Source: Candidatus Hadarchaeum sp. (GTDB lineage Archaea; Hadarchaeota; Hadarchaeia; Hadarchaeales; Hadarchaeaceae). From it: 40,526 nucleotides of DNA. Location: NCBI RefSeq assembly GCF_049969415.1, contig NZ_JBMFOX010000009.1, forward strand, positions 1 to 40,526, read 5' to 3'. Below are positions 1 to 23,497 of the stretch, piece by piece. Within the stretch, counting starts at the first letter, position 1. Every line of letters starts with the position of its first letter. The translations under genes and the position numbers were made by a program. The notes below the pieces were generated by a model that worked only from the letters and a program-made list of their open reading frames with translations, did not search any database and was not told the origin of the DNA.

Positions 1-62
1 GCAATTCGTTTGGCAGATTCCACATCATACTCGATAATGCTCCTCTTCAGATCGTCTATCAT
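1..62 (-). CDS. 5' end of a probable corrinoid (B12-binding) protein, truncated by the window edge
   Basis: The minus strand from ATG at 62 reads MIDDLKRSIIEYDVESAKRI, preceded by a GAGGT SD. It resembles the N-terminal cap of MttC/MtbC-type corrinoid proteins (compare MSELSEKIKEAMLTFDQEKI at 7250). Only about 20 codons are visible. Confidence 0.55.
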   Translation of the reverse strand, partial: MIDDLKRSIIEYDVESAKRI

Positions 63-325
63 GCAATTACCTCAATCTTACTACTGAAAACATAATAAAA
101 ATCTTGCGTATGGTAACTTTTGAAACAGTCGACCAAAAAATAAAACTTTCCATAAAAATCACCGAAAAACTTTGTTTAAAAATAAGAAAAAACATTTAAA
201 ATTTCTTTTTTTTACTTATTGAGGCTTTAAATAATATTTCAGCAAGATTAAAAGCTTAACTAAAACCTTAAATAAACTGAAAAAACAGGCATAGTGGGAG
301 GTAGGTAAATATAAAACCGGTAGCA

Positions 326-1633
326 ATGGCCACTATAGCGCTCGTAGTGGGTCTCATTATCGGAATCGGTGCCGGTTGGGTAGCTAAGCCCGCAGAGGTG
401 ACTACCGCTCCAGGGGCCACCGCGACCACAACGGTGACAACGACCAAGACGGTTACTGCGCCAGCCGCTGGCGGTCTCTCCGGCGAGGTGAAGATCGGCT
501 GGGTGGACGGTCTGACCGGAGGCAACGCCTTCTGGGGAGAAGCGGCTAAAACTGCTGCCGATGTCGCACTGAACGAAGTAAACCAATATCTGAAAGATAC
601 CAGCGCTGGTTGGACAATGAGCATAGTTTATGAGGACTCGGAAACCAAGCCTGATGTCGCCCTTGAAAAACTGAAGAGCTTGCACGCCAGAGGCATTACG
701 ATTGTCAGCGGTTGGGGAACTAGCGCAGACCTGAGGGCTTGTATCTCTTACTCCAACTCAAACAAGATTCTCCTACTTGCCTACGGTTCCAACGCTGCAG
801 ACTTGGCCATACCTAACGACTATACCTACCGACTCATGCCAACCACAAAAATCGAAGGCAAATGCTTCGCGCGAATCGTCTACGACTTGGGAGTAAAATA
901 CTTGGTGCCGATGTGGCGTGGGGACACCTTCGGAGACTCGATGATGAATTACGTAAGACAATACTGCTCGGCACTAGGAATTACTGTGGATGATGGGGTT
1001 AGATACGACCCCAACGCCACTGAATTCAGCTCTGAAGCCGCTGCCTTTGCATCTAGAATCAACAATGCCATATCCACTTATGGGGCCGACAAGGTTGGTG
1101 CTTACATCCACTGCTTTGAGGAGGGCAAAGCAATCTTCGCATCCTTAAAAGCTTACAACGCGACGAACTGGGGAGTCCACTGGGTGGGTGTCGGAGGTCT
1201 AGTCTTGACTGACTGGGCATTGGAAACCGACACGGCAGATATAATAGCCAATAAAGGCGTCTACGGATGCTTAATCCCGACTCCAAACGCGAAACTATAC
1301 AACGTCCAAGCGCAGATAAAGGCTAAACTGGGCAGAGAGGCCGACATCTATGGACTCAATGGTTACGATGCGGTCTGGATGTTGGCACTGGCACTGAACA
1401 GCGCAAAGTCTTATGACTCCGATGCTGTTAAGGCTCAGTTGCCATGGGTCGCAAACAACTACACAGGTGTCACCGGCTGGTCGCCTTTCGATGAAGCTGG
1501 TGACAGACAGGGCAGCAACTACGGACTGTTCCAGATTGTTGGATCAGCAGGGGCCTACAAGTGGGCTCAGGTTGGCATATGGGACTTTAGCATAGACACG
1601 ATAACCTGGTGGCCGGAACCAAAAATAATGTAA
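326..1633 (+). CDS. ABC transporter substrate-binding protein, LivJ/branched-chain-amino-acid type, membrane anchored
   Basis: N-terminal hydrophobic anchor and Thr-rich linker (TATTTVTTTKTVT), followed by periplasmic-binding-protein type I motifs (VKIG..LTG, EDSETKP, YDAVWMLALAL, YTGVTG..FDEAGDR). Confidence 0.85.
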   Translation: MATIALVVGLIIGIGAGWVAKPAEVTTAPGATATTTVTTTKTVTAPAAGGLSGEVKIGWVDGLTGGNAFWGEAAKTAADVALNEVNQYLKDTSAGWTMSIVYEDSETKPDVALEKLKSLHARGITIVSGWGTSADLRACISYSNSNKILLLAYGSNAADLAIPNDYTYRLMPTTKIEGKCFARIVYDLGVKYLVPMWRGDTFGDSMMNYVRQYCSALGITVDDGVRYDPNATEFSSEAAAFASRINNAISTYGADKVGAYIHCFEEGKAIFASLKAYNATNWGVHWVGVGGLVLTDWALETDTADIIANKGVYGCLIPTPNAKLYNVQAQIKAKLGREADIYGLNGYDAVWMLALALNSAKSYDSDAVKAQLPWVANNYTGVTGWSPFDEAGDRQGSNYGLFQIVGSAGAYKWAQVGIWDFSIDTITWWPEPKIM

Positions 1634-1651
1634 CAAAACGAGACCCACCAA

Positions 1652-1671
1652 TTTTTTTGTTTTTTCTTTTT
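1652..1671 (+). terminator. oligo-T archaeal terminator after the binding-protein gene
   Basis: TTTTTTTGTTTTTTCTTTTT about 20 nt after the stop codon. Confidence 0.55.
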
Positions 1672-3477
1672 AAATTGGATGACTTAATCGTGTGACACGT
1701 TTAATAATAAAATTTTCAATCGATCCCGCAGACCAGACATTCTGATATAGCATGGTTGACCAAACACCTTTAACCTATCTGAAATCTTCAGCCCTGATAA
1801 AAGTGACATTGAACCTAGATTAAGCTAACGACTCAAAATTTGGCCGGCTTTATCCTACACGGAATATCCCTGGTGTGGGCCGATCCACCAATAGGATCAT
1901 ACTCGTCGAGGGTTAGCAGAAAATTAACATTCGACTCAAAGCAACCGTGTAGAGGTCCTGGTTTTTCTGGATACCACCAGCCGTGTTGAGACACTACCAT
2001 CCGGGGATGAACATCTTCGGTCAGTTTAGCCACCATCCATACTTTTTTCTCTTTTCCGTACGGTGTTTCGATAAAAACCATTTCACCGTTCTCGATGCCC
2101 AACTTTCTTGCCGTATCCGGGTGAATACTTATTTCAGGCTCAGGGTGTTTCAATCGCAACATCGGTATCTGTCGTCCCTGAGAATGACTGTACTCCAGCA
2201 ACCTGTTTCCAGTCAACCATATCAGTGGATACTCATCAGAAGTTTGGGCGGGAGGTACGTGATCAGGTAGCGGGTCAAAGCCATATTTTTCAAGCAGAGT
2301 TGAATAAAACTCGAATTTCTTTGATGGAGTCCAGAATCCACTTTCTTTATATTTTTCATACGTTTTTGGCATTGTTATATAATTAACGTTTTTCTTTCTG
2401 AGTTCCTCGAAGACAAGGCCTGAAGGTGCTAACCTATAATTATTATATTCCTCCTCCGATTTCCAAGGAAAGTTTAAACCCATTCTTTTCGCCAGTTCAA
2501 TCAATATCTCGGCATCGCTCCGACGTTGGTATAACGGTTCGACCGCCCTGTGACATATCGAAACACAGTAGGGGTAGGAAGGTGAACCGGGAATTCCATC
2601 TCTCTCGAGCCAACAGGCAACGGGAAGCACTAAATCAGAAAGCTCGGCCGTTGGTGTCATAAAAAGATCCAGTGTTACTAGAAAATCCAACTTCCTCAAC
2701 GCTCCCATAACTCGCCCGGAATCCTGCATCGTCAATAAAGGATTAGTGCCGACTACAATCATGGCCTTGACAGGATACGGATTTCCTGTTTCGATCGCAT
2801 CCATCACGAAATGTGGGTGTGCCATCGCTACCGGCGCATCGGGGCCAGAATACAATGGAAGTTCTTTGGCACCCAATCTCCTCTCTCTCACTTCTCTTGG
2901 CAATTTATCTAAACCCTCAGTCTAAGCACAAGAAATCCCCTTCACCGGAGCGTCTATTTTTATTGTATTCCCGCCTTTTCGGTCAAGGTTACCACAAACC
3001 GCTATGAGAAAATTAATGAGTCTTTCTGTTTGAACGGAATTAATGCTCATATCCAGAGAGGTGCTAAAGATAATGGAAGCCGGTGTATGGGTGGCATACA
3101 TCCTAGCCGCTTCGATTATCTTCTCTTCAGGTATCCAAGTAATCTTGGATACTTTATCCACCGGAAAGTTTTTTACCCGATTTTTGAGTTCTTCGAAACC
3201 GCTACACCACTTATTAACGAATTCCTTGTCGTAGAGTTTCTCTTCAATTATAACGTTCAACATCCCCAAGGCAAGGGCATCGTCAGTACCTGGCCTTATT
3301 TGCAGCCACAAATCAGCTTTCTTCACCCAGAAAGTTCGGACCGGGTCGATCACAATCAGCTTCGTTCCTCTTTGCACCGCTTCCAGCAAGACCTTGACCA
3401 CGTTCGGAAAGCTCGCCGACGGATTCGCCGCCCAGATTACGATGCATTTAGAATCAGGCCATTCACGGCTATAATTA

Positions 3478-4605
3478 AGTCATTTTTCTTAGGTTTTGCT
3501 ATATATGGCTAGCGACTAGTAATGGTGGGGCTGGCCGAGGCCGGTGGAGGTGAAAAACCTCAAATGGGTGATTCCCATGGCCAAGCCAGCCGTGTTAGAG
3601 CTGAAGGATGAGGAAATAAAAGCGGTGGAAGAGTTCGCAGCCACGACAAAGTCGGTTAGGGAGTTCAAGCGAGCCCGAGCGGTGCTCTACAAGGCGAAGG
3701 GAATGAGTTTGGAACAGATAGCTCAGTTATTGGGTGTGCACTGGAGCACCGCGCAGAGGTACATAGCCAGATACAAGGAGCGAGGGATCGCCAGCTTCAA
3801 GGACAAGCCTAGGCCCGGGAGGGAGCCCAAGCTTACGGATGAGGTGAGGAAAAAATTGCTAAAGGCGGCCTTGAAGAGCCCCAAGCTCTTCGGCTTCCTG
3901 AAGAACAATTGGAGCCTAGGGATGCTGAGGCTGTACATCAAAAAAGAAACCGGAATCGATATAAGCGAGACCCAAATCTGGAGGATCCTGAAAAAGCATG
4001 GGATAGTATACAAGAGGCCGAAGCTCGTTGCCCCAGAAAAGCGGGGAAAAGGGCCAAAAAGGTCGAAAACTACAAGAGGGTCGCAAAGGCCCTTTTAAAA
4101 AAGGGTGATGGTGGCATTCGAGGACGAGACTTGGGTTGAGCTTCTCCCAAAGGTTTGGAAGTGTTGGTACCTGAAGGGAAAGCAACTCGAGATCGAGACG
4201 CCCGGAATTAACAAGCGACTGAATGTCTTCATAACCTTGGACTTTGGATCGGGCAAGCTGATCTACAGCATCCACAGGAGAAGGAGGAGCAGGGAGCTCA
4301 AATATCACCTCGGAAAGTTGATGAGGTACGCCAGGCGGAAGAGGTTCAAGAGGGTCATCCTTATCTTGGACAACTCGCCGGTACACAAGAGCGCTGAAAG
4401 CAGGAGATTTTTGAAGAGAAACGGCCGTTTCTTGAAAGTGTTCAACTTGCCCAGCTATTCACCGAACCTGAACGAGGTGGAGCACGTAAACAGGCAACTC
4501 AAGCGTGATGTGTGTTCGAACGTTCTCTTTGGGGATACTAGGGATCTCGGCGCAGCCGTGAGAAAATACCTAAGCATTGGATGGCAAAACTTACGAAAAA
4601 AGACT
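3478..4605 (+). mobile_element. IS630-family insertion sequence (IS630-a)
   Basis: Imperfect terminal IRs including the TA: TAAGTCATTTTTCTTAGGTTTTGCTAT versus revcomp TAAGTCTTTTTTCGTAAGTTTTGCCAT (23/27). TA is duplicated at 3476-3477 and 4606-4607 in a TTAA context. Excision restores the host gene frame. Confidence 0.93.
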
Positions 4606-4608
4606 TAA
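3577..4608 (+). CDS. IS630 transposase with HTH and DDE halves separated by an in-frame TAA at 4096-4098
   Basis: HTH region (RARAVLYKAKG, DKPRPGREPKL, WSL..LR) and DDE triad motifs FEDE, LILDNS and SPNLNEVE. Confidence 0.85.
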
Positions 4609-5145
4609 AACCTAAAGCGGTGGGGATTCCCATGTCAGCGTGACAGGCCAATGCCATGGGGCCAAAACAGATATAGTCCATCCCCATCACGTTCGGGGTT
4701 CCGAGAGCGGCGGCAAAAAAAGTACTTATTCCAACGTGATCGTGGGACCAACTTCCATGGGCAACTACAATACTTTCAGGACCATACTTTTCTCTGATTT
4801 CTGTAAGCCGATTCGAAATCAAACTTAGTGCCTCATCCCATGATATCCGTTCCCATTTTTCGCTGTTTTTGTCGGTTCTTTTTAACGGGTAATTGACCCG
4901 CATATCGTTGTATAACAGTTCCATTCCGGCAAGACCTTTGATGCACATGTGCCCTTTAGTCTCTGGGTGATCGGGATCTCCCTCGATTTTTAATACCCTG
5001 CCACCCTCACTAACGAAAACCTGTGCGCCGCAACAGACAGCACATCCATCACAACTAGTCTTTATCCGCTCCATGGATTTTCAACCATCATGATTTAAGT
5101 TCTGACAATTTTAACGTCAAATGGCTCAATTATTAATAACCAACT

Positions 5146-6606
5146 CTAAACGTTGTGTTCAGTCTTTGCCTCCCTTTTCTCCACTTCCCTAACAAAATCC
5201 TCCAGCTCTTTTTCTATATCCCTGTCCAACGGCCCCGGCCGATGCTTTTCCAGTATCTTTTTGACCTCAACACGGGCAGTCTCCCTAAGATCCCTTGAAC
5301 CCGCTTTTTCCCAAGTTTCTCTTTTTTCCCTGCTGAAAATTTTGGGGAGGTAGTGTTCCTTCATGAAGTTCTGTATGGTGTGCTTCTGAGTAAAGTAATG
5401 GCCTTCAGGACCTACCTTCTTTATTACTTCAACAGCCAGCGTTTCCTCGTCAACTTTTATACCGCTCAGCGCCCGGGACACCATGCCCGCCAGCTCGTCA
5501 TCAATGACAAGCTGTTCATAGCTCATGGTTAGCGTCGACTCGAGGGTACCAGCAAAAGAATAAACAAGGTTTACTCCGGCCAAGGCCCCCATGAGCAGCG
5601 TCACCGATTTCTCCAAGCCCGCCTGAATGTCAGGTATCTTTGCGTCCGTGGTGCCACCGGTTCCCCGGCTGGGAAGGCCATAGTACTGAGCCAGTTGGGC
5701 CGTGGCCGCATTAATAAGTCCTGCTTCAACGGCCCCTAAGGCAATGTTGCCGCTTTTCATGTCTGCAATTGTTGAAACGGTTCCATAAAGCACCGGAGTG
5801 CCGGGGCTGACAAGCTCGGCCAAAACTATCCCGCTAAGGATCTCGGCATTTTGTTGCACCAAGAGCCCCGCCAGCGTCGCGGGCGCCGTCGCACCCGATT
5901 GGGCCTCCGGCGCAATAACAAGCGGCTGCCGGTACTTCGCATATACCATAAGCCCTTCCACCATCTCCTTGGAGTGCTGCAACGGGCTCGTGGGATTTTC
6001 TATGCTCAGAAGCAATGGCCTTTTTTTGAGCTCCTCAACACCTCCGGCAACAATCGAAGCCATCCTCAGGTTATCTTCTGAGGGGATCTCACCGTAGATG
6101 TAACCGTCCAGAGGCTTGGTCGTGTTCCTAAATCCTGCTAATAACCCGTATACGTGGACCAAGGGCTCTGGAATATCCTTTGGCCAGACTGCCCAATCCA
6201 AAAGATGTATGTTTTCCAAGGAATCCCCGAGCCTGAAAAACAGCTCCACATCAGCCAAGGTGCCCTCGCGGCGTTTCCCCGAATCAATATCCAGAACATA
6301 GGGGAACCATCCCCCCATCGAGAAATAAATCCGGTTGCCCCCAAGCCTCATTTTACGGTCAAAGTTTCTTCCGTAAACCGTACAGCAGCTCGGCGCTCCT
6401 TTTACCGCTTCCGTGACTAGGTGCTCAGGGATTCTGGCAATTCCCCTCTTGAAATCAACAAAGGCCCCTGCATCTTCCAGTATTTTCAACGCTTTCTCGG
6501 AAAGGAACTTCACGCCAACCTGTTCGAGGATTTCTGTGGTAGCCATATGAATTTCGTAAAGTTCGTCTCCGGAAAGTAACTGCAATTGCCCTCCCCTAAA
6601 ATTCAA
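5146..6606 (-). CDS. mttB: MttB-superfamily corrinoid methyltransferase (MT1), non-pyrrolysine type
   Basis: Motifs IH..T..ILEQVG, NPTSPL, GATAPATLAGLLVQQNAEILSG, DAKIPDIQAGLEK, AG.LES.LT.SYEQLVIDDE and VGPEGHYF. Thr occupies the Pyl-equivalent position (GGTTDAK) and there is no internal TAG. Confidence 0.9.
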   Translation of the reverse strand: MNFRGGQLQLLSGDELYEIHMATTEILEQVGVKFLSEKALKILEDAGAFVDFKRGIARIPEHLVTEAVKGAPSCCTVYGRNFDRKMRLGGNRIYFSMGGWFPYVLDIDSGKRREGTLADVELFFRLGDSLENIHLLDWAVWPKDIPEPLVHVYGLLAGFRNTTKPLDGYIYGEIPSEDNLRMASIVAGGVEELKKRPLLLSIENPTSPLQHSKEMVEGLMVYAKYRQPLVIAPEAQSGATAPATLAGLLVQQNAEILSGIVLAELVSPGTPVLYGTVSTIADMKSGNIALGAVEAGLINAATAQLAQYYGLPSRGTGGTTDAKIPDIQAGLEKSVTLLMGALAGVNLVYSFAGTLESTLTMSYEQLVIDDELAGMVSRALSGIKVDEETLAVEVIKKVGPEGHYFTQKHTIQNFMKEHYLPKIFSREKRETWEKAGSRDLRETARVEVKKILEKHRPGPLDRDIEKELEDFVREVEKREAKTEHNV

Positions 6607-7250
6607 CTCCGACCCTCCATGAGTTTCTTGGCCAGTTTGACCGCTTCAATCGCGTTTTCAGCGTATCCATCCGCGCCTATCTTCTCCGCCCATTCCGCTG
6701 AAACCGGCGCCCCACCAACCACAACTTTAACTTTTTCCCGCAGACCATGACTTCTAAGGGCCTCGATCACCTTTTCCTGCATGGGGCGAGTGGTAGTGAT
6801 CATGGCGGACATGCCGACAATATCTGGGTTCTGCTCCTTAACCGTTTTTATGAAATCCTCGACCGGAACGTCTTTTCCTAAGTCCAACACCTCAAACCCG
6901 GCGGAGAAAAGCATTGACGCGACTATACTCTTGCCGATGTCATGGATATCCCCGGCCACGGTACCGATAACAACCCGTCCAATGGTTTTTCTCTCGGCAT
7001 TGCCCTTGAGCAACGGCTCTATGTGCTCGGCAATGGCATTCTTTGCGGCTTCGCTAATGATCATCAGGTGGGGGATGAAAATTTCACCCTTCTCAAACAT
7101 GTCACCAATCTCCTCAAAACTGACCGTAATTGCGTTGATGAGATCCAGAGGATTGGCACCATCGCTCAGGCATTTCCTAATGGTTTCAACTATCTTCTCC
7201 TGGTCAAACGTCAACATGGCTTCCTTTATTTTCTCTGAAAGTTCAGACAT
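6603..7250 (-). CDS. methyltransferase corrinoid protein (MttC/MtbC-like)
   Basis: DxHxxG motif in GTVAGDIHDIGKSIV, plus DLGKDVP, GMSA, VGGAPV and IGADGY. Overlaps the mttB start by 4 nt. Confidence 0.93.
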   Translation of the reverse strand: MSELSEKIKEAMLTFDQEKIVETIRKCLSDGANPLDLINAITVSFEEIGDMFEKGEIFIPHLMIISEAAKNAIAEHIEPLLKGNAERKTIGRVVIGTVAGDIHDIGKSIVASMLFSAGFEVLDLGKDVPVEDFIKTVKEQNPDIVGMSAMITTTRPMQEKVIEALRSHGLREKVKVVVGGAPVSAEWAEKIGADGYAENAIEAVKLAKKLMEGRS

Positions 7251-7295
7251 CGATAGCCTCTTTTATCCTTTTTTATTAATGGTTTGCTATTTTGA

Positions 7296-7615
7296 TGCAT
7301 TGTTGCATTAAATTTTTAAAATTGTCCTGAGACCGGTGTTTTGGCGGCTGGGGGCTGGACCGATGAGGTGGTGGTGAAAAACCACCGAGGTGTTGGGATG
7401 CCGAAGGTTAAGAGGGATTGGAAAACTTACAACGAACAGCCCGTCATGGCGCAAAAGTTCGAAAGCATGGCCAAGGAAATGTTGCTGAAGGCGTTCTGCT
7501 ACAACCTGTTGATGAACTTGGGCGTCGGTCGATGAGATCCTTTCAAGAATTGGTTCGACGAGCCAAACCGGAGCTTGCGCAGGAGATTTCGCGTTTTGAT
7601 TTGTGCAACAATGCA
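7296..7615 (+). mobile_element. 320-bp MITE, an internal deletion derivative of an IS5-family (ISH1-like) element
   Basis: Perfect 12-bp IRs TGCATTGTTGCA (7296-7307) and TGCAACAATGCA (7604-7615). 8-bp target duplication TATTTTGA at 7288-7295 and 7616-7623. Mini-ORF 7398-7535 fuses a transposase-like start (KRDWKTYNEQ) to a transposase-like end (EMLLKAFCYNL). The family assignment is inferred from the TGC end and the 8-bp TSD. Confidence 0.88.
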
Positions 7616-7720
7616 TATTTTGATACTCTACGCAGAGGGGTGTTTAATCTACAGAGAATTTTTGTCCGACCAACGGTATTGTTTTACAACACTCCAACGC
7701 GCCAAAACTTTGTTAGCTTA

Positions 7721-8879
7721 AAAGTTCTGTCACATAATTTAATGTCCCATTGTCACATAAGTTCTTTCCCCATTCCGATTGTAGGCCGAGATCCATTTCA
7801 CCACGGTCATCTTCAGTTGTTTCATCGATCGGAAATTGCTGTTGTTCAAGACTTCTTTCTGCAGCAGGGAAAACTTGTTTTCGATCTCGTTCAACTCCGG
7901 TGCCCCTTTCGGCAGGAAAACCAGCTCGACAGCACCGCCATTTTCGCTCAAGTATTCCTTGACGATTTTTGCTTTGTGCGTTTTGGTGTTGTCCAACACG
8001 ACGTATAGCTTATCATCCTCAAACTTCCTTTCTAGCCAAGAAAGGAAATCTCTGAACTGCAAACTCTTCGCTTCGAAGTAAAACCTGTAAAATATCCGGT
8101 CCGTATGCGGACTGTACGCAGCAAACAGATGCAGCTTCTTCCGAACCCTTATCCTCTGATTGGCCCTGATGATGATCATCTTCTTCCGCGTCCACATGCT
8201 CCCGCCGTAGCGCTTCACGACCATAGGTCCCTTTTCGTCCTCGAAAAACACGATGCAATTCGGCCTCTCCAGAAGCTCGCGGATCCTGGCCTTTTTAGCC
8301 TCTTAATCGGGGTCTTCAGAGATGAGCTTCTTCCGGGACTTTCTGAATGCCACGCCGTGGCTTAGGAGTATCCTCCTCAATTCTTCCACACTCACATCGG
8401 CGATCCTTTTGCTTCGGAGGTACGACCTGAGCTTCCTCAGGCTCCAATTCATGAAGGGTAAACCCAAGCTTTCGGGTCTCCTGCAGGCGATCCTCACTAT
8501 CTCCTTTTCAAGCCCTTCGTTGAACTTCGGTCTCCTTCCGCTCTTAGGCCTCTCGAGTATACCGCGAATGCCCAAGGTATTGAATCTCCTTATCCAGCTC
8601 CTGATTGTCTTCACATGCATGTTAAGGCGGATCCCTATCTCCGCTGGCGTATAACCCTGTCGTGAGAGGAGGATCACCCTGGCCCTGTACGCTATGCGAC
8701 TTTTCTCATCCAGTTGCCTGAGAAGGAAGTCCTTCTCGCTCCGGCTGAGCTTCCTTGCGTACAGGGTATCCATCACATTTTCTTAGAATCCTGACTATAA
8801 AAAGGGAATAGTATTTATGTGACAAATGAGATAATCTATTGTGTGACAGTTGTGACATTCAATTTTGTGACAGTACTCT
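7721..8879 (-). mobile_element. IS630-family insertion sequence (IS630-b)
   Basis: About 45-bp imperfect IRs built from TGTCAC repeats (TTAAAAGTTCTGTCACATAATTTAATGTCCCA versus revcomp TTAAGAGTACTGTCACAAAATTGAATGTCACA). TA is duplicated at 7719-7720 and 8880-8881 in a TTAA context. Confidence 0.9.
7739..8776 (-). CDS. IS630 transposase with an in-frame TAA at 8303-8305
   Basis: ORFs 8303..8776 and 7739..8251 are in the same frame and read ...SEDPD*EAKKARIRELLERPNCIVFFEDEKG. DDE motifs FEDE, VVLDN and APELNEIE. Confidence 0.85.
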
Positions 8880-10928
8880 TAAACGCTCAATAGAGCACAG
8901 CAGGGACTTCACCGCTGGGAATCCAGATATCGGGTCCCGATCTTCTTCGTTAGTTAAAATGTTGGCGTTGGCCTCTTTCCACCCGTGCTGGACGTGGACC
9001 ACCTTGGGGTGCATGTCCTCCGTGACCCTTGCCTTTATCTTGAGGCTTCCTCGCTTGGTCTTAACCAATATCATGTCACCATCGGCGATGCCGTATCTCT
9101 TCGCAGTCTCAGGGTGGATTTCGGCCAACGGGTCCGGAACCTTCTCCCGCAGCCGAGGTATGTTTCGCAGCTGTGAATGGGTATACTCCAAAATTCTGGA
9201 TCCTGTGGTTAAAATTAGCGGATATTTCTTGGTCAGCTCCGGATCACTCACCGGGCTCTCCTTGGGCTCGACATAGGTGGGTAGAGGATCATACCCATAT
9301 TTCCGAAGTGTCTCCGAGTACAGCTCGACCTTCTTGCTCGGCGTCGCAAATCCTTCGTCTATGTACTTCCGGTACCTCTGGCAATCATAGTAAAAACCCC
9401 CAGGTATCTCCTCAAGCGCCTTGAGCGAATAACCGGTCGGCTTCAACAGTACATCGATAGATTCCCTAACATCGTTCCACGGGAAGGACTCACCATAGCC
9501 CATTCTCTTGCCCAGCTCAAACCAGAACTTCCAGTCCGGCCAGGCCTCGCCCTGCGGTTCCACCACTTTTTTTCTAAGCATGACATAGGGAATTCCCATC
9601 ACCGCACCGAAGTCGAGCAATTCAGTCTTTTCCAAGAATGTGGCCGCGGGAAGAACGAGGTCGGCAAGCTCGGCCGTGGCGGTCATGAAGACGTCCATGA
9701 CAACGAGAAAATCAAGTTTTTCTAGCGCCGCTTTGACCTTATTGTAGTTAGGCCACTGGACTGCCGGATTGCCTCCGGAGACGATCATGGCCCTTATCTG
9801 ATGAGGATCTCCACTCAGCAGTTTATTTATCAAAACCATGACCTGTCCTTCTCTGGTGTGCTCGTACTGTATGGGGTGCACCTCGGCGCCAAACGGCTTT
9901 TCAGTTTGCATTTTCGGGAATCCCAAATTGGTCAACCTTAGCCTGGGTGAATAAGTATTTCCGCCGGGCACGTCGAGGTTGCCGGTGATCGCCATCATTA
10001 TGGCAAGGGCGCGAGAATTTTGAACACCGTTCGCCTGAAGATCTAAGGAGTTGCCCTGATTTATGCACGCCGGCTTGGTCGAGGCATATAATCGGGCCGC
10101 CTTGACTATATCCTCAGCATCGACCCAAGTTATCCCCTCAGCCTTCTCCGGAGTGTATTTTTTCACGTGCTCGGCCAATTTCTCAAAGCCGACCGTCCAC
10201 TTTTCTACAAACTCCTTATCGTAAAGTTCCTCGGAGATTATGACGTTCAACATGGCTAGGGCCAAGGCGCAATCGGTCCCGGGCCTAGGTCTGAGGTGTA
10301 TATCCGCCTTTTTTGCAAAAAAGGTTCGAACCGGATCAACGACGATTAGCTTGGCTCCGTTCTCCATGGCCTTGAGCAATTTCTTTGCCCGCGGCAAGAA
10401 AGCGTTGTACTCGTTGCGCCCCCACATTATGATGCATTTGGAGTTCTCGTGGTCAGGAACGGACATCGTGCCATAGGTCAGCCTGTGGGCTATCACTCTA
10501 GCCCTGTAGCACATGCTGTCGACCGAATAATAATGCGGAGTACCGTAAACATCGCAGAACCTGCGCGCATACCATTTATTCTCATAGTAATCGATGCCCT
10601 GTCCCAGATAGACGGACAAGGCCCGGCTTCCATAATCCTTCTTAATCCGGGCAAGTTCCCCCACAATGATGTCCAAAGCTTCGTCCCACGAAATCCTCTT
10701 CCAAGAATCACCTTCTCTTTTCATCGGATACTTGAGACGATCGGGAGCGTAAACGTAATCAATCGCGGCTTCAGCCTTGGGACAGATTTCACCCCGATTG
10801 ACTGGATGCTCTTTCATCCCCTCCACTTTGGCAATTTTCCCTCCTTCTGTGTAAACGTCCAAACCGCATTCTCCAGAACAGATTCTACAAATCGTCTTGA
10901 CCACTTTACCGTCATGCCCCGCGTTCAT
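8859..10928 (-). CDS. Mo/W-bisPGD oxidoreductase catalytic subunit, acetylene-hydratase-like clade, essentially intact
   Basis: CRICSGEC...C [4Fe-4S] motif, DRLKYP, ISWDEAL, Cys ligand in DSMC, RPGTDCALALAM, MTATAELADLVLP and a MopB_CT domain. No Tat signal. The last 6 residues come from the IS end. Confidence 0.9.
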   Translation of the reverse strand: MNAGHDGKVVKTICRICSGECGLDVYTEGGKIAKVEGMKEHPVNRGEICPKAEAAIDYVYAPDRLKYPMKREGDSWKRISWDEALDIIVGELARIKKDYGSRALSVYLGQGIDYYENKWYARRFCDVYGTPHYYSVDSMCYRARVIAHRLTYGTMSVPDHENSKCIIMWGRNEYNAFLPRAKKLLKAMENGAKLIVVDPVRTFFAKKADIHLRPRPGTDCALALAMLNVIISEELYDKEFVEKWTVGFEKLAEHVKKYTPEKAEGITWVDAEDIVKAARLYASTKPACINQGNSLDLQANGVQNSRALAIMMAITGNLDVPGGNTYSPRLRLTNLGFPKMQTEKPFGAEVHPIQYEHTREGQVMVLINKLLSGDPHQIRAMIVSGGNPAVQWPNYNKVKAALEKLDFLVVMDVFMTATAELADLVLPAATFLEKTELLDFGAVMGIPYVMLRKKVVEPQGEAWPDWKFWFELGKRMGYGESFPWNDVRESIDVLLKPTGYSLKALEEIPGGFYYDCQRYRKYIDEGFATPSKKVELYSETLRKYGYDPLPTYVEPKESPVSDPELTKKYPLILTTGSRILEYTHSQLRNIPRLREKVPDPLAEIHPETAKRYGIADGDMILVKTKRGSLKIKARVTEDMHPKVVHVQHGWKEANANILTNEEDRDPISGFPAVKSLLCSIERLRVLSQN

Positions 10929-11031: not shown

Positions 11032-12132
11032 GTGGTCGATATGTTCGATAAAAAAGCGATGCAATTTATGAAGGATTTGATGGAATCCTTCGGTCCGTCC
11101 GGATTTGAGGCAGAACCGGCGAAAATGGTTAAGGAATATCTGCGACCCTATTCAAACGAGATCATCTCGGATAAATTGGGATCGATTATCTTCGTGGCAA
11201 AGGGAAAGGCACAGCGTCCGCGGATTCTGATGGCAGGGCATCTCGATGAGGTCGGCTTTGTCATCACCGGGATAGATGAAAAAACTGGTTTTCTGAAGTT
11301 CGGCCCGCTGGGAGGCTGGTGGGACCAAGTGCTTCTCTCTCAGAGGGTCATCGTCAGGACTAAAAAGGGCGATCTGCTAGGAGTCATTTCCTCAAAGCCA
11401 CCGCACGTTCTGACCGAGGAGGAAAGGAAAACGGTCGTGAAGAAGGAGGACATGTACATCGACATCGGGGCCTGCTCCATGGACGAAGCAGTTAAAATGG
11501 GGGTAAGGATAGGCGACCCAGTTACGCCCTGGTCTCCCTTTTCGCTATTCAAAGGGGGAAAATTTGCCGCGGGCAAGGGTTTCGATGACAGAATCGGCGT
11601 CTTCGTAATGGCCGAGGCCTTAAGGAGGATAAAGGAACAGGCGATCAAGCACCCCAACACCATCTACGCGGCCGCAACCGTGCAGGAGGAGGTTGGCCTG
11701 AGGGGGGCCAAAACTTCCGCCCACGTGGTCGATCCTGACGTTGGAATCGTGCTTGAGGTAGACATCGCTGGTGATGTGCCTGGAATCCAGCCCCATCAGG
11801 CCCCAACGAAGCTGGGAAAGGGTCCCTCCCTGCTGACCTACGACAGATCAATGATTCCCAACCAACCGTTGAAGGACTTCATCATTGAACTCGCGGAAAG
11901 GAAAAAGATACCGCTCCAGCTCTCACAGTCAACGGGTGGCGGCACCGACGCGGGCAGCATCCACTTGGACAGAGCCGGCTGCCCCACCGCCGTCATCAGC
12001 GTCCCCACCAGGCACATTCACACCCACGTGGGCTATCTCTGTCTGGAGGACGTGGAGAACGCTGTTAAATTGACCATTGAAATCATCAAGGAGCTTGATG
12101 CTGAGAGGGTAAGAAGTTTTACCGCGATTTGA
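11032..12132 (+). CDS. M42 family aminopeptidase (TET/FrvX-like)
   Basis: GPSGFE, AGHLDEVG, GKGFDDRIG, TVQEEVGLRGA, GGTDAG and PTRHIH. The start may be ATG 11041. Confidence 0.93.
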   Translation: MVDMFDKKAMQFMKDLMESFGPSGFEAEPAKMVKEYLRPYSNEIISDKLGSIIFVAKGKAQRPRILMAGHLDEVGFVITGIDEKTGFLKFGPLGGWWDQVLLSQRVIVRTKKGDLLGVISSKPPHVLTEEERKTVVKKEDMYIDIGACSMDEAVKMGVRIGDPVTPWSPFSLFKGGKFAAGKGFDDRIGVFVMAEALRRIKEQAIKHPNTIYAAATVQEEVGLRGAKTSAHVVDPDVGIVLEVDIAGDVPGIQPHQAPTKLGKGPSLLTYDRSMIPNQPLKDFIIELAERKKIPLQLSQSTGGGTDAGSIHLDRAGCPTAVISVPTRHIHTHVGYLCLEDVENAVKLTIEIIKELDAERVRSFTAI

Positions 12133-12876
12133 TCAGCGAATGTAGCTGGGCTCCTCTTCAGTGAAACCGCTTATCTCCGGGATGGGCTCCGGCGGTGCCA
12201 GTTTGGCCAGCCTCTTCGCCTGCTGCTCCAAATCCTTTAGCTCAAGCTTGAAGTTCAGCACCGCAGCCAAGGACTTCAAAACCGCGGCCGCCGCACCCGC
12301 GTCCAGCACCCCGCCCTCGGTGACGCCGAGCAGGCAAAATCCCATCATACCCCGCCGAGACGCCATTACCGGGAGCATCCCATTCATGCCCACGATCACG
12401 CCGCTGTTCAACAACCTGACGCCCCGTTCGCCCAGCATCTTAGCTAGCGAAGCTTCCGAGGCAGCTCCGACCACACCATAGCTGCGCCTTTCCTCGGGAG
12501 AAACCACATAGGCGGCCATTGTCCCGACCAGTTTAACTCCAAGGCGGGTGGCGACGTCCAGCAGATCCCCCGTGAGCGCATATTGCCCCAGGGGAGTCGC
12601 CGCCTGAGCATCAGCGGTCACCAGCACCATATCCTGCTTCATTTCCTCCGGACGGCAGTGGTAAAAATCAACCTTTAAGGGATTAATCTGTCCTTCCTCT
12701 TGGATTACCCATTCGGGGAAATATTCCGAGTAGAGCTCCAGAAACTTTTTCGCCGCCAATTTTTGCACCAGGTACTCCAATGCCAGCTTACCCACATTGG
12801 CTATGCCGGGAAGACCTGCCACCAGCACCGGCTGCTTCAGCTTTGGCCGGCGGAGATATCTCAATCGCGTGGGCAT
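12133..12876 (-). CDS. PAC2-family proteasome assembly chaperone
   Basis: PVLVAGLPGIANVGKLA, LYSEYFP, IVGMNG.L and a C-terminal SYIR. ATG 12876 is preferred over the ORF-track start. Confidence 0.85.
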   Translation of the reverse strand: MPTRLRYLRRPKLKQPVLVAGLPGIANVGKLALEYLVQKLAAKKFLELYSEYFPEWVIQEEGQINPLKVDFYHCRPEEMKQDMVLVTADAQAATPLGQYALTGDLLDVATRLGVKLVGTMAAYVVSPEERRSYGVVGAASEASLAKMLGERGVRLLNSGVIVGMNGMLPVMASRRGMMGFCLLGVTEGGVLDAGAAAAVLKSLAAVLNFKLELKDLEQQAKRLAKLAPPEPIPEISGFTEEEPSYIR

Positions 12877-12995
12877 AGTAATCCCTTTGGCTCCCAATAA
12901 TTTAAGTGTTAAATTTTCACGCGCCAATAGAGATTAACCGTTATCGGGTAAAATTGGAATTGAATCCGTTCCGGGGTGGTCAAATAAGGGATCCA

Positions 12996-22555: not shown

Positions 22556-23497
22556 GTGAGTTCTGTGAGGACAAAGTTGCTGTTAGCCTCACTAGTAATA
22601 GTGGTCCTGCTCAGCATTTACTTCATACCTGCTGGCAGCGCGAAGGGCAACGAGGCGGAGCCAAGCGTGGTCAAGGTCGGGGTTTGGATAAACTCCATCG
22701 AGAAGGTCGACACACCAACGCAGACCTTTACCGTCGATTTCTATCTTTGGTTCAAGTATCGTGACATCAGACCCGACATTGAGTTTCTGCGAGGCACGCC
22801 TAGAATGGACCTTGTCACTGAAGAAGAGAGGGAAAATGAAAACTATCTTGAATACCGGGTAAGAGGAGCATACGTCCAGCCATTTGACTTCAAGGATTTC
22901 CCGTTAGACGAGCATTTCCTCTCAATTTCGCTGGAGGACAAGAACCACAACATCTCTGAACTGGTCTTTGAACCGGATGTTGAGGAAAGCGGAATTGATC
23001 CCAGTTTAGAGGTTGCCGGTTGGGACGTGAAGGACTTTCGCATATTCGTGACGGAACATGCTTATCCAGGTGAAACTTACTCCCAGCTCAACTTTGGTCT
23101 GACCGTCTATCGATCCAAACTTTCGGCCATCCTCAAGAACTTCCTGCCCATCATTATCATAACTTTAATTTCCCTGCTCACCTTCGCCATCTCAATTAAG
23201 AACTTTGGCCAGAGGGTCGGGATCTGCGTCTCAACGTTGATGTCCGCGGTAGCCTATCACATTGCCGCCCTTAGTGGACTACCTGCCCTTGGATATCTAA
23301 CCCTGTTTGACCGGATAATGTTGGTGGTCTACACCGTTTTCCTTTACAACCTTTTAGTTTCTGTCCAAGGGATGAGGTTGGTTGAAGCCGGAAAAGCCGA
23401 GCAAGCGGAGAAATTTGAGGTCAGGATGCAGAACCTACTACCGGTGCTCATCTTTGTCCTGAGCATCATCTACATCGGGTTGTTTGGGCTGCTCTAA
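22556..23497 (+). CDS. pentameric ligand-gated ion channel (GLIC/ELIC-like Pro-loop receptor)
   Basis: Signal peptide; V.VGVWINSI..VD...QTFTVDFYLWF; Pro-loop FKDFPLD; GW; pre-M1 Arg; M1 Pro; M2 RVGICVSTLMSAVAY; M2-M3 loop LPALGYLTLFD; four TM helices. Confidence 0.88.
   Translation: MSSVRTKLLLASLVIVVLLSIYFIPAGSAKGNEAEPSVVKVGVWINSIEKVDTPTQTFTVDFYLWFKYRDIRPDIEFLRGTPRMDLVTEEERENENYLEYRVRGAYVQPFDFKDFPLDEHFLSISLEDKNHNISELVFEPDVEESGIDPSLEVAGWDVKDFRIFVTEHAYPGETYSQLNFGLTVYRSKLSAILKNFLPIIIITLISLLTFAISIKNFGQRVGICVSTLMSAVAYHIAALSGLPALGYLTLFDRIMLVVYTVFLYNLLVSVQGMRLVEAGKAEQAEKFEVRMQNLLPVLIFVLSIIYIGLFGLL

What the first reader, a model, noticed from the sequence alone, without database searches (positions are those of the whole stretch)
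1..10928. Candidate undescribed pathway: non-Pyl MttB/corrinoid demethylase clustered with two stand-alone acetylene-hydratase-like Mo/W enzymes
Seen: with the three mobile elements removed, the minus strand reads Mo/W enzyme, corrinoid protein, MttB, second Mo/W enzyme. These are followed by a convergent LivJ-type binding protein and a second corrinoid gene at the window edge. Both Mo/W proteins have a Cys ligand and one [4Fe-4S] motif, no Tat signal, and no Fe-S or membrane partner gene nearby. They lack the catalytic Asp that follows the second Cys in acetylene hydratase (CxxCD there; CDGCA and CRICS here). Established: non-Pyl MttB homologues demethylate quaternary amines such as glycine betaine and carnitine, and the acetylene-hydratase-related Cys-ligated clade includes catechol dehydroxylases. 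Inference: a coupled route in which the Mo/W enzyme prepares the methyl donor (e.g. N- or S-oxide reduction) or processes the demethylated product (dehydroxylation or hydration). I know of no characterised pathway with this pairing.
Basis: partly seen in the sequence, partly recalled or inferred. Interest (0 to 1): 0.82.

Follow-up and report, generated by a model that had tools for sequence, protein, structure and literature searches.

The report
Mo/W enzyme beside corrinoid methyltransferases
In a hot-spring archaeon (Candidatus Hadarchaeum), an uncharacterised molybdenum/tungsten enzyme related to acetylene hydratase sits next to vitamin-B12-dependent demethylation genes; the pairing recurs in a few unrelated bacteria and may mark an undescribed step in breaking down methylated compounds, but the second copy of the enzyme here is a dead gene.

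Summary
The gene order is real. On the minus strand lie an intact Mo/W enzyme (Mo1), two mobile elements, a corrinoid protein, a non-Pyl MttB and a second Mo/W gene (Mo2). A LivJ-type binding protein and the start of a second corrinoid gene follow. Mo2 is a pseudogene: it carries an IS630-like insertion and an in-frame TAG, and the genome has no detectable Pyl machinery. Mo1's nearest solved relative is acetylene hydratase, by sequence and by fold. It lacks that enzyme's catalytic Asp, as do 170 of the 171 clade members I examined. In all 5 other Hadarchaeum loci, Mo1 orthologues keep corrinoid-methyltransferase genes beside them despite rearrangements. Outside the genus the pairing is rare: 6 firm cases in 159 loci. 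These fall into two separate small subclades. One is a tight operon of HGD-D, Mo enzyme, URO-D methyltransferase, corrinoid protein and RACo activase. The methyltransferase type differs between subclades (MttB, MtmB-like, URO-D). Aldehyde:ferredoxin oxidoreductase is the family's commonest neighbour (18 of 164 loci). Four bathyarchaeal loci with the nearest MttB relatives hold no Mo enzyme. Functional coupling is plausible (about 0.45) but unproven, and the chemistry is unknown. I found no paper describing the pairing.

The parts
3..71 (-). First 23 codons of a second corrinoid-protein gene that runs off the window
   Evidence: 17 of 23 residues match the N-terminus of the complete corrinoid protein on Hadarchaeum contig L127, which is followed there by an MtmB-family gene. 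Own-genome contig C100 ends with a corrinoid-protein C-terminus followed by an MtmB-family gene in the fitting orientation.
326..1633 (+). LivJ-type solute-binding protein (435 aa) with an N-terminal hydrophobic segment and a Thr-rich linker
   Evidence: PF13458 at 102.2 bits and PF01094 at 100.4 bits. Orthologues of 79-87% identity lie convergent to Mo1 in L025, L026, L126 and L127. No close solved relative (best E-value 4.8e-6).
1833..2903 (-). Mo2 pseudogene, C-terminal fragment
   Evidence: PF01568 and PF00384. Best PDB hit is acetylene hydratase 2e7z at 163.2 bits.
2922..2924 (-). In-frame TAG inside Mo2
   Evidence: Read directly from the sequence; the ORFs on either side are in the same frame. 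No Pyl machinery was found.
2925..3488 (-). Mo2 pseudogene, middle fragment (a TGA at 3480-3482 lies near the junction)
   Evidence: PF00384. Homology to Mo1 resumes at '...SREWPDSKCIVIW'.
3489..4615 (+). IS630-like insertion that splits Mo2 (ORFs 3544-4098 and 4105-4608)
   Evidence: HTH_32 and related HTH domains. The second ORF is 24% identical to the DDE_3 ORF of the other IS. 9-nt terminal inverted repeat TTAGGTTTT / AAAACCTAA. Boundaries are approximate.
4616..5074 (-). Mo2 pseudogene, N-terminal fragment (CDGCA... Fe-S motif and ligand Cys)
   Evidence: PF04879 and PF00384. Homology to Mo1 ends at '...GIPTA'.
5146..6606 (-). Non-Pyl MttB-superfamily methyltransferase (486 aa)
   Evidence: PF06253 at 429.8 bits. 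TIGR02369 at 493.9 bits, below its cut-off of 525. Best PDB hit is MtgB at 357 bits, ahead of MttB at 282 bits; Thr319 sits at the Pyl334 position.
6603..7250 (-). Corrinoid protein (215 aa); its stop codon overlaps the mttB start
   Evidence: PF02310 and PF02607. MtbC, pyl_corrinoid and MtgC models all score below their cut-offs.
7295..7616 (.). 322-bp MITE-like element made of the two ends of an IS
   Evidence: 13-nt perfect terminal inverted repeat. Its ends recur at at least 11 contig ends of this genome, including C78, C42, C35 and C26.
7718..8882 (-). IS630-like element (ORFs 8303-8776 and 7739-8251) inserted at the 3' end of Mo1
   Evidence: HTH_32 and DDE_3. 32-nt terminal inverted repeat, 84% complementary. 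The Mo1 C-terminus reads ...ERLRVLSQN where the closest orthologue reads ...ERLGR.
8859..10928 (-). Mo1: intact cytoplasmic Mo/W-bisPGD enzyme with one [4Fe-4S] motif (689 aa)
   Evidence: Three Pfam domains. Acetylene hydratase is the best match by sequence (353.8 bits) and by fold (TM-score 0.85, 32% identity). Ser replaces the acetylene hydratase Asp, and the ligand Cys is aligned.
11032..12927 (.). M42 peptidase and PAC2 genes: the conserved housekeeping flank that marks the edge of the island
   Evidence: Pfam. The same two genes flank Mo1 in L025 and L026.

Best explanation
Positions 1-10.9 kb are the edge of an accessory 'methyl-compound' island that is full of IS elements and specific to the genus Ca. 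Hadarchaeum.

Without the two mobile elements, Mo1 would lie about 145 bp upstream of the corrinoid protein and the non-Pyl MttB, on the same strand.

My best reading is that Mo1 is a soluble, probably ferredoxin-linked, Mo/W-bisPGD enzyme that acts on the same imported small molecule as the methyltransferase module. It would either produce the form that gets demethylated or convert the demethylated product; a reductive dehydroxylation or an aldehyde-forming step is possible. The methyl group would pass from MttB to the corrinoid protein, then to a URO-D-type methyltransferase, with RACo reactivating the corrinoid; URO-D and RACo genes lie elsewhere in the genome.

Shown: the gene identities, the decay of Mo2, conservation within the genus, and recurrence of the pairing in two bacterial subclades.

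Inferred: co-function, the electron donor, the substrate and the order of the steps.
For: Evidence from Hadarchaeum:
- Mo1 orthologues (84-87% identity) in G001, G003, G007 and two metagenome contigs all have methyltransferase-system genes within about 0.3-2 kb. The arrangements differ: Mo1-LivJ-CoP-MttB-MtmB; MttB divergent from Mo1; Mo1-CoP-URO-D with 11-bp and overlapping junctions.
- Only 3.5% of this genome lies within 2.5 kb of such a gene.
- Among 41 related genomes, MttB occurs only in the genus (6 genomes). Mo1 orthologues occur in 4 of those 6 and in no genome without MttB.

Evidence from bacteria:
- L031 and L040 carry LysR | HGD-D - Mo - URO-D - CoP - RACo - ABC transporter, with overlapping genes.
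- L071 has MttB followed by the Mo gene after 22 bp. L084/L196 have CoP - MtmB-like - Mo. L102 has Mo - ABC transporter - MttB.

Evidence from the trees:
- Linked rows form three separate starred subclades. The label needs 3 changes on the tree against a shuffled mean of 8.7, and 0 of 500 shuffles were as low. The 171-row tree gives the same picture.

Evidence on the enzyme itself:
- Mo1 needs no partner subunit by its architecture and has no Tat leader.
Against: - Outside the genus only 6 of 159 loci are firmly linked. L084 and L196 are identical proteins and probably one organism.
- L117, which is 86% identical to the L071 enzyme, has no methyltransferase gene in 7-kb flanks. L096, L118 and L119 are also unlinked.
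- The linked Anaerolineae and Thermoflexia genomes hold 12-20 MttB copies each, so chance proximity there is appreciable.
- By my rough estimate, about one adjacency would be expected by chance among the roughly 35 subclades, against three observed. That is only borderline.
- Hadarchaeum loci are kin, so their shared synteny counts as about one event.
- MttB's relatives are archaeal (Bathyarchaeia, Methanomethylicia), while Mo1's are mostly Chloroflexota and Thermodesulfobacteriota, with a few Bathyarchaeia. The two genes therefore did not arrive together.
- None of 4 bathyarchaeal MttB loci has a Mo enzyme.
- Different methyltransferase types imply different substrates for rather similar Mo enzymes.
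- The family's commonest neighbour is AOR, not a methyltransferase.
- An IS and a MITE now separate Mo1 from the corrinoid protein and MttB.
Confidence: 0.45

Rival explanations
1. Neighbours only. Mo1 and the methyltransferase cassettes are separate cargo of one accessory island that IS elements keep reshuffling. They share a location but not a pathway.
For: - There are three mobile elements within 11 kb. The ends of the 322-bp element lie at at least 11 contig ends, including the contigs that carry other MttB, MtmB and corrinoid-protein units and the Mo paralogue.
- Gene order differs between the genus members.
- Mo1 and MttB have different phylogenetic affinities.
- Most of the Mo clade is unlinked: 151 of 159 loci had no hit at all.
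- None of 4 bathyarchaeal MttB loci has a Mo enzyme.
- The linked Chloroflexota genomes are rich in MttB genes.
Against: - The linkage survives four different rearrangements in the genus.
- G007 and L031/L040 show operon-like junctions, overlapping or 11 bp apart, between the Mo gene and CoP/URO-D genes.
- Three separate subclades in three phyla are linked.
- The background within 2.5 kb in this genome is 3.5%.
Confidence: 0.33
2. Mo1 belongs to aldehyde or C1 redox metabolism. It would work with AOR and alcohol dehydrogenases, for example in an aldehyde-forming hydration or a formate-dehydrogenase-like oxidation, and would meet the methyltransferases only through shared downstream carbon flow.
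For: - AOR lies in 18 of 164 loci, spread over many subclades. Small Fer4 proteins lie in 14 of 164 and Zn-ADH in 8 of 164.
- In G007 the string is Mo1-CoP-URO-D-FeADH, followed by a convergent AOR.
- In this genome AOR or ADH genes also sit near MttB (C8), near MtmB-CoP (C42) and near RACo (C40).
- The best NCBIfam hit is Fdh-alpha at 420.9 bits, and formate dehydrogenases rank next after acetylene hydratase by sequence and by fold.
Against: - Fdh-alpha scores far below its cut-off of 666.25.
- The residue after the ligand Cys is Tyr, whereas formate dehydrogenases carry His there (motif recalled, not tested against a reference).
- This genome has 8 AOR copies, so AOR proximity is cheap.
- No AOR or ADH lies in the window itself.
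Confidence: 0.17
3. Mo1 is a genuine acetylene hydratase.
For: Acetylene hydratase is the closest solved protein by sequence (E-value 1.8e-104) and by fold (TM-score 0.85). Both are cytoplasmic and have one [4Fe-4S] cluster and a Cys ligand.
Against: Ser replaces the Asp next to the second cluster Cys. Only 1 of 171 clade members has Asp there. Identity is 32%.
Confidence: 0.03

Closest known systems
Acetylene hydratase of Pelobacter acetylenicus (PDB 2e7z)
   Same: Nearest solved relative of Mo1 (353.8 bits; TM-score 0.85; 32% identity) and of the Mo2 C-terminal fragment (163.2 bits). Both proteins are soluble and have no Tat leader, one N-terminal [4Fe-4S] motif and an aligned ligand Cys.
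   Different: The Asp after the second cluster Cys is Ser in Mo1 and Ala in Mo2. The residue after the ligand Cys is Tyr in Mo1 and Ile in acetylene hydratase. The genomic context is corrinoid methyltransferases, not acetylene fermentation.
Catechol dehydroxylases of Eggerthella and Gordonibacter (Dadh, Hcdh, Cadh; Dodh, Cldh)
   Same: PMC7028382 (passages read) reports these as the bis-MGD clade closest to acetylene hydratase. The Gordonibacter type is smaller, lacks a TAT signal and pairs with a small 4Fe-4S protein. Small Fer4 genes flank 14 of 164 loci of the Mo1 clade. A corrinoid O-demethylation followed by Mo-dependent dehydroxylation is the known order in gut lignan metabolism, split between organisms (recalled, Bess et al. 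2020; not read here).
   Different: No reference sequences were available, so the relationship is untested. The Eggerthella type has a TAT signal, a ferredoxin and a membrane anchor; none of these is present here. The methyltransferase in the window is N-methyl-type MttB, not an O-demethylase.
MtgB/MtgC glycine betaine:corrinoid methyltransferase and other non-Pyl MttB-superfamily quaternary-amine demethylases
   Same: The window's MttB is closer to Desulfitobacterium hafniense MtgB (357 bits) than to Pyl-containing MttB (282 bits) and lies next to a cognate-type corrinoid protein.
   Different: Of the four betaine-binding residues named in the abstract of PMC13080624 (Y97, R312, H348, F356), only the Arg is kept; the window protein has G, R, S and T (my mapping on the alignment). 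The nearest relatives are uncharacterised archaeal proteins. No characterised system of this kind includes a Mo enzyme in the papers I searched.
Pyl-containing TMA methyltransferase MttB with MttC (Methanosarcina)
   Same: Same Pfam family. TIGR02369 scores 493.9 bits.
   Different: The score is below the cut-off of 525. Thr occupies the Pyl position. No PylS, tRNA-Pyl or McrA was found in the genome.

Membership tests
Acetylene hydratase | bis-MGD fold with an N-terminal [4Fe-4S] domain; soluble, no Tat leader | tested here: met
   Pfam domains. 2e7z is the top Foldseek hit with TM-score 0.85. The Fe-S motif starts at residue 14.
Acetylene hydratase | Cys ligand to the metal | tested here: met
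   Mo1 '...SMCYR' aligns with '...YMCIG' of 2e7z. The residue number Cys141 is recalled.
Acetylene hydratase | Catalytic Asp directly after the second cluster Cys (CxxCD) | tested here: not met
   CRICS in Mo1 against CQSCD in 2e7z. CDGCA in Mo2. Asp occurs in 1 of 171 clade members. The role of the Asp is recalled from the literature.
Acetylene hydratase | Hydration of acetylene to acetaldehyde | not testable with these tools
   Needs an enzyme assay.
Catechol dehydroxylases | Placement inside the dehydroxylase clade in a tree with Dadh, Hcdh, Cadh, Dodh and Cldh | not tested
The accession numbers are in a supplement of PMC7028382 that I could not open.
Catechol dehydroxylases (Eggerthella type) | TAT signal plus adjacent 4Fe-4S ferredoxin and membrane-anchor genes | tested here: not met
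   No leader. No such genes in the window. The features are as described in PMC7028382.
DMSO/TMAO reductases (DorA, TorA, BisC type) | Score above the family cut-offs; Ser ligand and no Fe-S domain (the latter two recalled) | tested here: not met
   bisC_fam 205.7 against a cut-off of 1017.55; TorA 160.5 against 1465; dmsA_ynfE 296.1 against 777.7. Mo1 has a Cys ligand and an Fe4S4 domain.
Formate dehydrogenase alpha | Score above the TIGR01591 cut-off; Cys or Sec followed by His (recalled) | tested here: not met
   420.9 bits against a cut-off of 666.25. Mo1 has Cys-Tyr.
Non-Pyl MttB superfamily | Full-length MTTB domain, no in-frame TAG, an ordinary residue at the Pyl position | tested here: met
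   PF06253 matched over residues 7-474. No stops inside. Thr319 aligns with X334 of 7xcl.
MtgB (glycine betaine methyltransferase) | Betaine-binding residues Y97, R312, H348 and F356 | tested here: not met
   The window protein has G, R, S and T at the aligned positions, so 1 of 4 is kept. Alignment to 9yce, read with a numbering offset of 2; residues taken from the abstract of PMC13080624.
Methyltransferase-cognate corrinoid proteins | B12-binding_2 cap, B12-binding domain and DxHxxG motif | tested here: met
   Both domains found. DIHDIG is in the sequence. TIGR02370 scores 210.2, just below its cut-off of 215.3.
IS630 family | HTH plus DDE_3 transposase, terminal inverted repeats, TA target site | tested here: inconclusive
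   HTH_32 and DDE_3 domains and terminal repeats. The transposase is split into two ORFs in both copies. A TA duplication is only suggested by the sequence.

The most novel reading that the evidence does not exclude
A subset of Asp-less, acetylene-hydratase-related Mo/W enzymes forms a previously unrecognised catalytic accessory of corrinoid methyltransferase systems. It would have been recruited independently in Hadarchaeota, Chloroflexota and Thermodesulfobacteriota. It would give non-methanogenic anaerobes a one-organism route in which a methylated compound is imported, demethylated on a corrinoid protein, and its residue (or its precursor) transformed at Mo/W. One possible example is O- or N-demethylation followed by reductive dehydroxylation or aldehyde formation that feeds AOR and ADH.
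Probability: 0.3. Interest if true: 0.7.

Novelty: new variant of a known kind. Interest (0 to 1): 0.45.

Why it matters
Hadarchaeota are widespread subsurface and hot-spring archaea that have almost never been cultured, and their use of methylated compounds is not described. Non-Pyl MttB and MtmB homologues are a large family whose substrates are mostly unknown. If the Mo/W enzyme really belongs to the module, it narrows the search for those substrates to compounds that need an oxo-transfer, dehydroxylation or hydration step. It would also give a first physiological context to a very large orphan clade of the DMSO-reductase superfamily: 6546 proteins scored E <= 1e-30 among the 8000 candidates examined. 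If the pairing is only island neighbourhood, the locus is an ordinary accessory island holding a decayed gene.

Tried and rejected
- **TAG in Mo2 read as pyrrolysine: rejected.** No PylS and no tRNA-Pyl were found, and the gene is also split by an IS.
- **Mo1 as acetylene hydratase, formate dehydrogenase or a DMSO/TMAO reductase: rejected as memberships**.
- **MttB as a glycine betaine methyltransferase: not supported.** Only 1 of 4 binding residues is kept.
- **Orthologues of Mo2: none found.** The best matches among all loci held were 41-48% identical over fragments. Mo2 sits on a long branch near the C26-type paralogues, and that placement is unreliable.
- **Wider search for Mo2 relatives:** the 'longer' search of the 5.8-billion-protein collection timed out and I did not repeat it.
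- **RNA evidence:** no RNA holder was listed. One DNA run held 8% of the sampled words.
- **Ligand of the binding protein:** no close solved homologue.
- **Tree with characterised enzymes** (acetylene hydratase, catechol dehydroxylases, DMSO/TMAO reductases): not built, because no reference sequences could be obtained. PDB and NCBIfam scores and Foldseek were used instead.
- **Complex prediction:** not used, because I do not claim that Mo1 binds the corrinoid protein or MttB.
- **Weak hits not counted as linkage:** a URO-D gene 3.1 kb from the Mo gene in L049, and a 138-aa RACo-like stretch next to it in L169.
- **Literature:** seven full-text searches returned no paper that describes a Mo/W enzyme paired with MttB or corrinoid methyltransferases. 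Subscription journals are not covered and supplements were closed.

Full report
**What is in the sequence.**
The window is contig C9 of a 1.47-Mb genome that is 95% complete. Homologues are named Candidatus Hadarchaeum. Positions 11-40 kb hold archaeal housekeeping genes: M42 peptidase, PAC2, ArgRS, TiaS, TFB, tRNA-splicing endonuclease, A-type ATP synthase and SecDF.

On the minus strand, from high to low coordinates, lie:
- Mo1 (8859-10928, 689 aa; Fe4S4, Molybdopterin and Molydop_binding domains);
- an IS630-like element (about 7718-8882);
- a 322-bp MITE-like element (7295-7616);
- a corrinoid protein (6603-7250);
- MttB (5146-6606);
- Mo2 in three pieces (4616-5074, 2925-3488 and 1833-2903).

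A convergent LivJ-type binding protein (326-1633) and the first 23 codons of another gene (3-71) follow.

**Mo2 is a pseudogene.**
It is split by a second IS630-like element at about 3489-4615, which has 9-nt terminal repeats. It carries an in-frame TAG at 2922-2924 and a TGA next to the junction.

The genome shows no PylS: the best hit scores 42.4 bits against a cut-off of 178.15. None of the 32 tRNAs is a tRNA-Pyl, and no McrA was found. The TAG is therefore a nonsense codon.

Mo2 has no orthologue in the loci I hold (at most 48% identity). It sits on a long branch outside the Mo1 clade.

The IS next to Mo1 replaced the last residues of Mo1...ERLRVLSQN where the closest orthologue has ...ERLGR.

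The edge peptide matches 17 of 23 residues of the N-terminus of a full corrinoid protein on Hadarchaeum contig L127. That protein precedes an MtmB-family gene there. Own-genome contig C100 fits as the continuation of the window.

**What the proteins are.**
Mo1's best solved relative is acetylene hydratase. The sequence match is E 1.8e-104 and 353.8 bits, ahead of FdhF at 296 bits and polysulfide/thiosulfate reductase at 274 bits. An AlphaFold model (pLDDT 74.5, pTM 0.79) matches 2e7z with TM-score 0.85 at 32% identity.
- The ligand Cys aligns, but Ser replaces the Asp of the enzyme's CQSCD motif.
- In 171 clade members, Asp occurs at that position once.
- All NCBIfam models score far below their cut-offs.

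MttB has Thr at the Pyl334 position of 7xcl. It is nearer to MtgB (357 bits) than to Pyl-containing MttB (282 bits), yet it keeps only 1 of the 4 betaine-binding residues. Its relatives are archaeal: Hadarchaeum at 76-78% identity, Bathyarchaeia at 62-67%, Methanomethylicia at 58% and Thermofilaceae at 55%.

The genome also holds:
- two more MttB genes and three non-Pyl MtmB-family genes;
- further corrinoid proteins and three URO-D-family genes;
- one RACo gene;
- no MtrH.

**Does the pairing recur? Within the genus, yes.**
G001 has Mo1-LivJ(convergent)-CoP-MttB-MtmB-LivJ2. G003 and two metagenome contigs have MttB divergent from Mo1, followed by LivJ, MtmB, LivJ2 and CoP-MtmB. G007 has Mo1-CoP-URO-D-FeADH with tight junctions, followed by a convergent AOR. 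That is 5 of 5 loci, in arrangements that differ from the window.

In 41 related genomes, MttB occurs only in this genus (6 genomes). Mo1 orthologues occur in 4 of those 6 and never without MttB. These genomes are kin, so this amounts to roughly one evolutionary event.

**Outside the genus, rarely.**
I examined 164 loci:
- 80 from species-representative genomes;
- 80 from metagenomes;
- 4 others.

Some loci are duplicated between the two collections. The median total flank is 9 kb, and 110 loci have at least 5 kb. Thirteen loci show a methyltransferase-system gene. All 5 Hadarchaeum loci do, as do 6 firm and 2 weak cases among the 159 others.

The 6 firm cases fall into two starred subclades.
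- **Anaerolineae/Thermoflexia subclade:** L071 (MttB-Mo, 22-bp gap), L084 = L196 (CoP-MtmB-like-Mo) and L102 (Mo-ABC-MttB).
- **L031/L040 subclade:** LysR | HGD-D-Mo-URO-D-CoP-RACo-ABC, with overlapping genes.

Evidence against: L117 (86% identical to L071), L096, L118 and L119 are unlinked. The Anaerolineae-type genomes carry 12-20 MttB copies. Four bathyarchaeal loci with the nearest MttB relatives have no Mo enzyme.

**Other contexts of the Mo clade.**
Neighbours among the 164 loci are AOR in 18, enoyl-CoA hydratase in 17, small Fer4 proteins in 14, Zn-ADH in 8 and NrfD in 6. This points to aldehyde-related or ferredoxin-linked chemistry for the family at large.

PMC7028382 (passages read) reports that catechol dehydroxylases are the characterised enzymes closest to acetylene hydratase. 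It also reports that the Gordonibacter type is soluble, lacks a TAT signal and pairs with a small 4Fe-4S protein. I could not test whether Mo1 belongs with them.

**Judgement.**
Co-function of Mo1 with the methyltransferase module is the best single reading (0.45). Plain island neighbourhood is the main rival (0.33), followed by a role in aldehyde or C1 redox chemistry (0.17). Because the methyltransferase type differs between linked subclades, any coupling is to corrinoid methyl transfer in general. The substrate and the reaction remain unknown.

Seven literature searches found no description of the pairing.

Noticed in passing
window 7295-7616; own-genome contig ends (C78, C23, C3, C36, C42, C28, C54, C31, C26, C6, C35): A 322-bp element with 13-nt perfect terminal inverted repeats consists of the two ends of a larger IS. 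Copies of that IS sit at at least 11 contig ends and evidently break the assembly around the methyltransferase cassettes and the Mo paralogue.
   Followed up: partly
own genome C100:505-1854, C78:183-1529, C42:729-2090; L025:16038-17423: Three full-length MtmB-family genes without an in-frame stop, in a genome without Pyl machinery. A 2026 paper (PMC13044021; search listing and start of abstract only) ties a non-Pyl MtmB homologue to methanogenesis from tetramethylammonium and choline.
   Followed up: partly
L040:6843-18756 and L031:1363-6339: A tight bacterial operon: LysR | unknown 216-aa ORF - HGD-D-family protein - Mo/W enzyme - URO-D methyltransferase - corrinoid protein - RACo - MalK-type ABC ATPase - SBP_bac_1. 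It pairs a 2-hydroxyacyl-CoA-dehydratase/double-cubane-type protein with the Mo enzyme.
   Followed up: partly
L206 (G007:C114) 11-10380; own genome C40, C8, C42: AOR and Fe- or Zn-alcohol dehydrogenase genes repeatedly lie near methyltransferase-system genes in Hadarchaeum: Mo1-CoP-URO-D-FeADH, with AOR convergent just beyond, in G007; RACo...ZnADH-AOR on C40; AOR near MttB on C8; FeADH near MtmB-CoP on C42.
   Followed up: partly
own genome C26:7395-9524 and relatives (G001:C6, G003:C22, G004:C29, G005:C23, G007:C56): A third acetylene-hydratase-like paralogue, about 41% identical to Mo1, is conserved in 6 of 8 genomes of the genus. One of these, G005, has no MttB, so this paralogue is not tied to the methyltransferases.
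   Followed up: partly
window 22556-23497 (+): A 313-aa ORF has a weak hit to the neurotransmitter-gated ion-channel ligand-binding domain (PF02931, 28.5 bits, E 1.2e-6, no stretch passing on its own). It may be a prokaryotic pentameric-channel relative or a chance hit.
   Followed up: no
own genome C6:34035-34129 (complement): ARAGORN reports one tRNA of undetermined type with an odd anticodon loop. Only 32 tRNAs were found in all.
   Followed up: no
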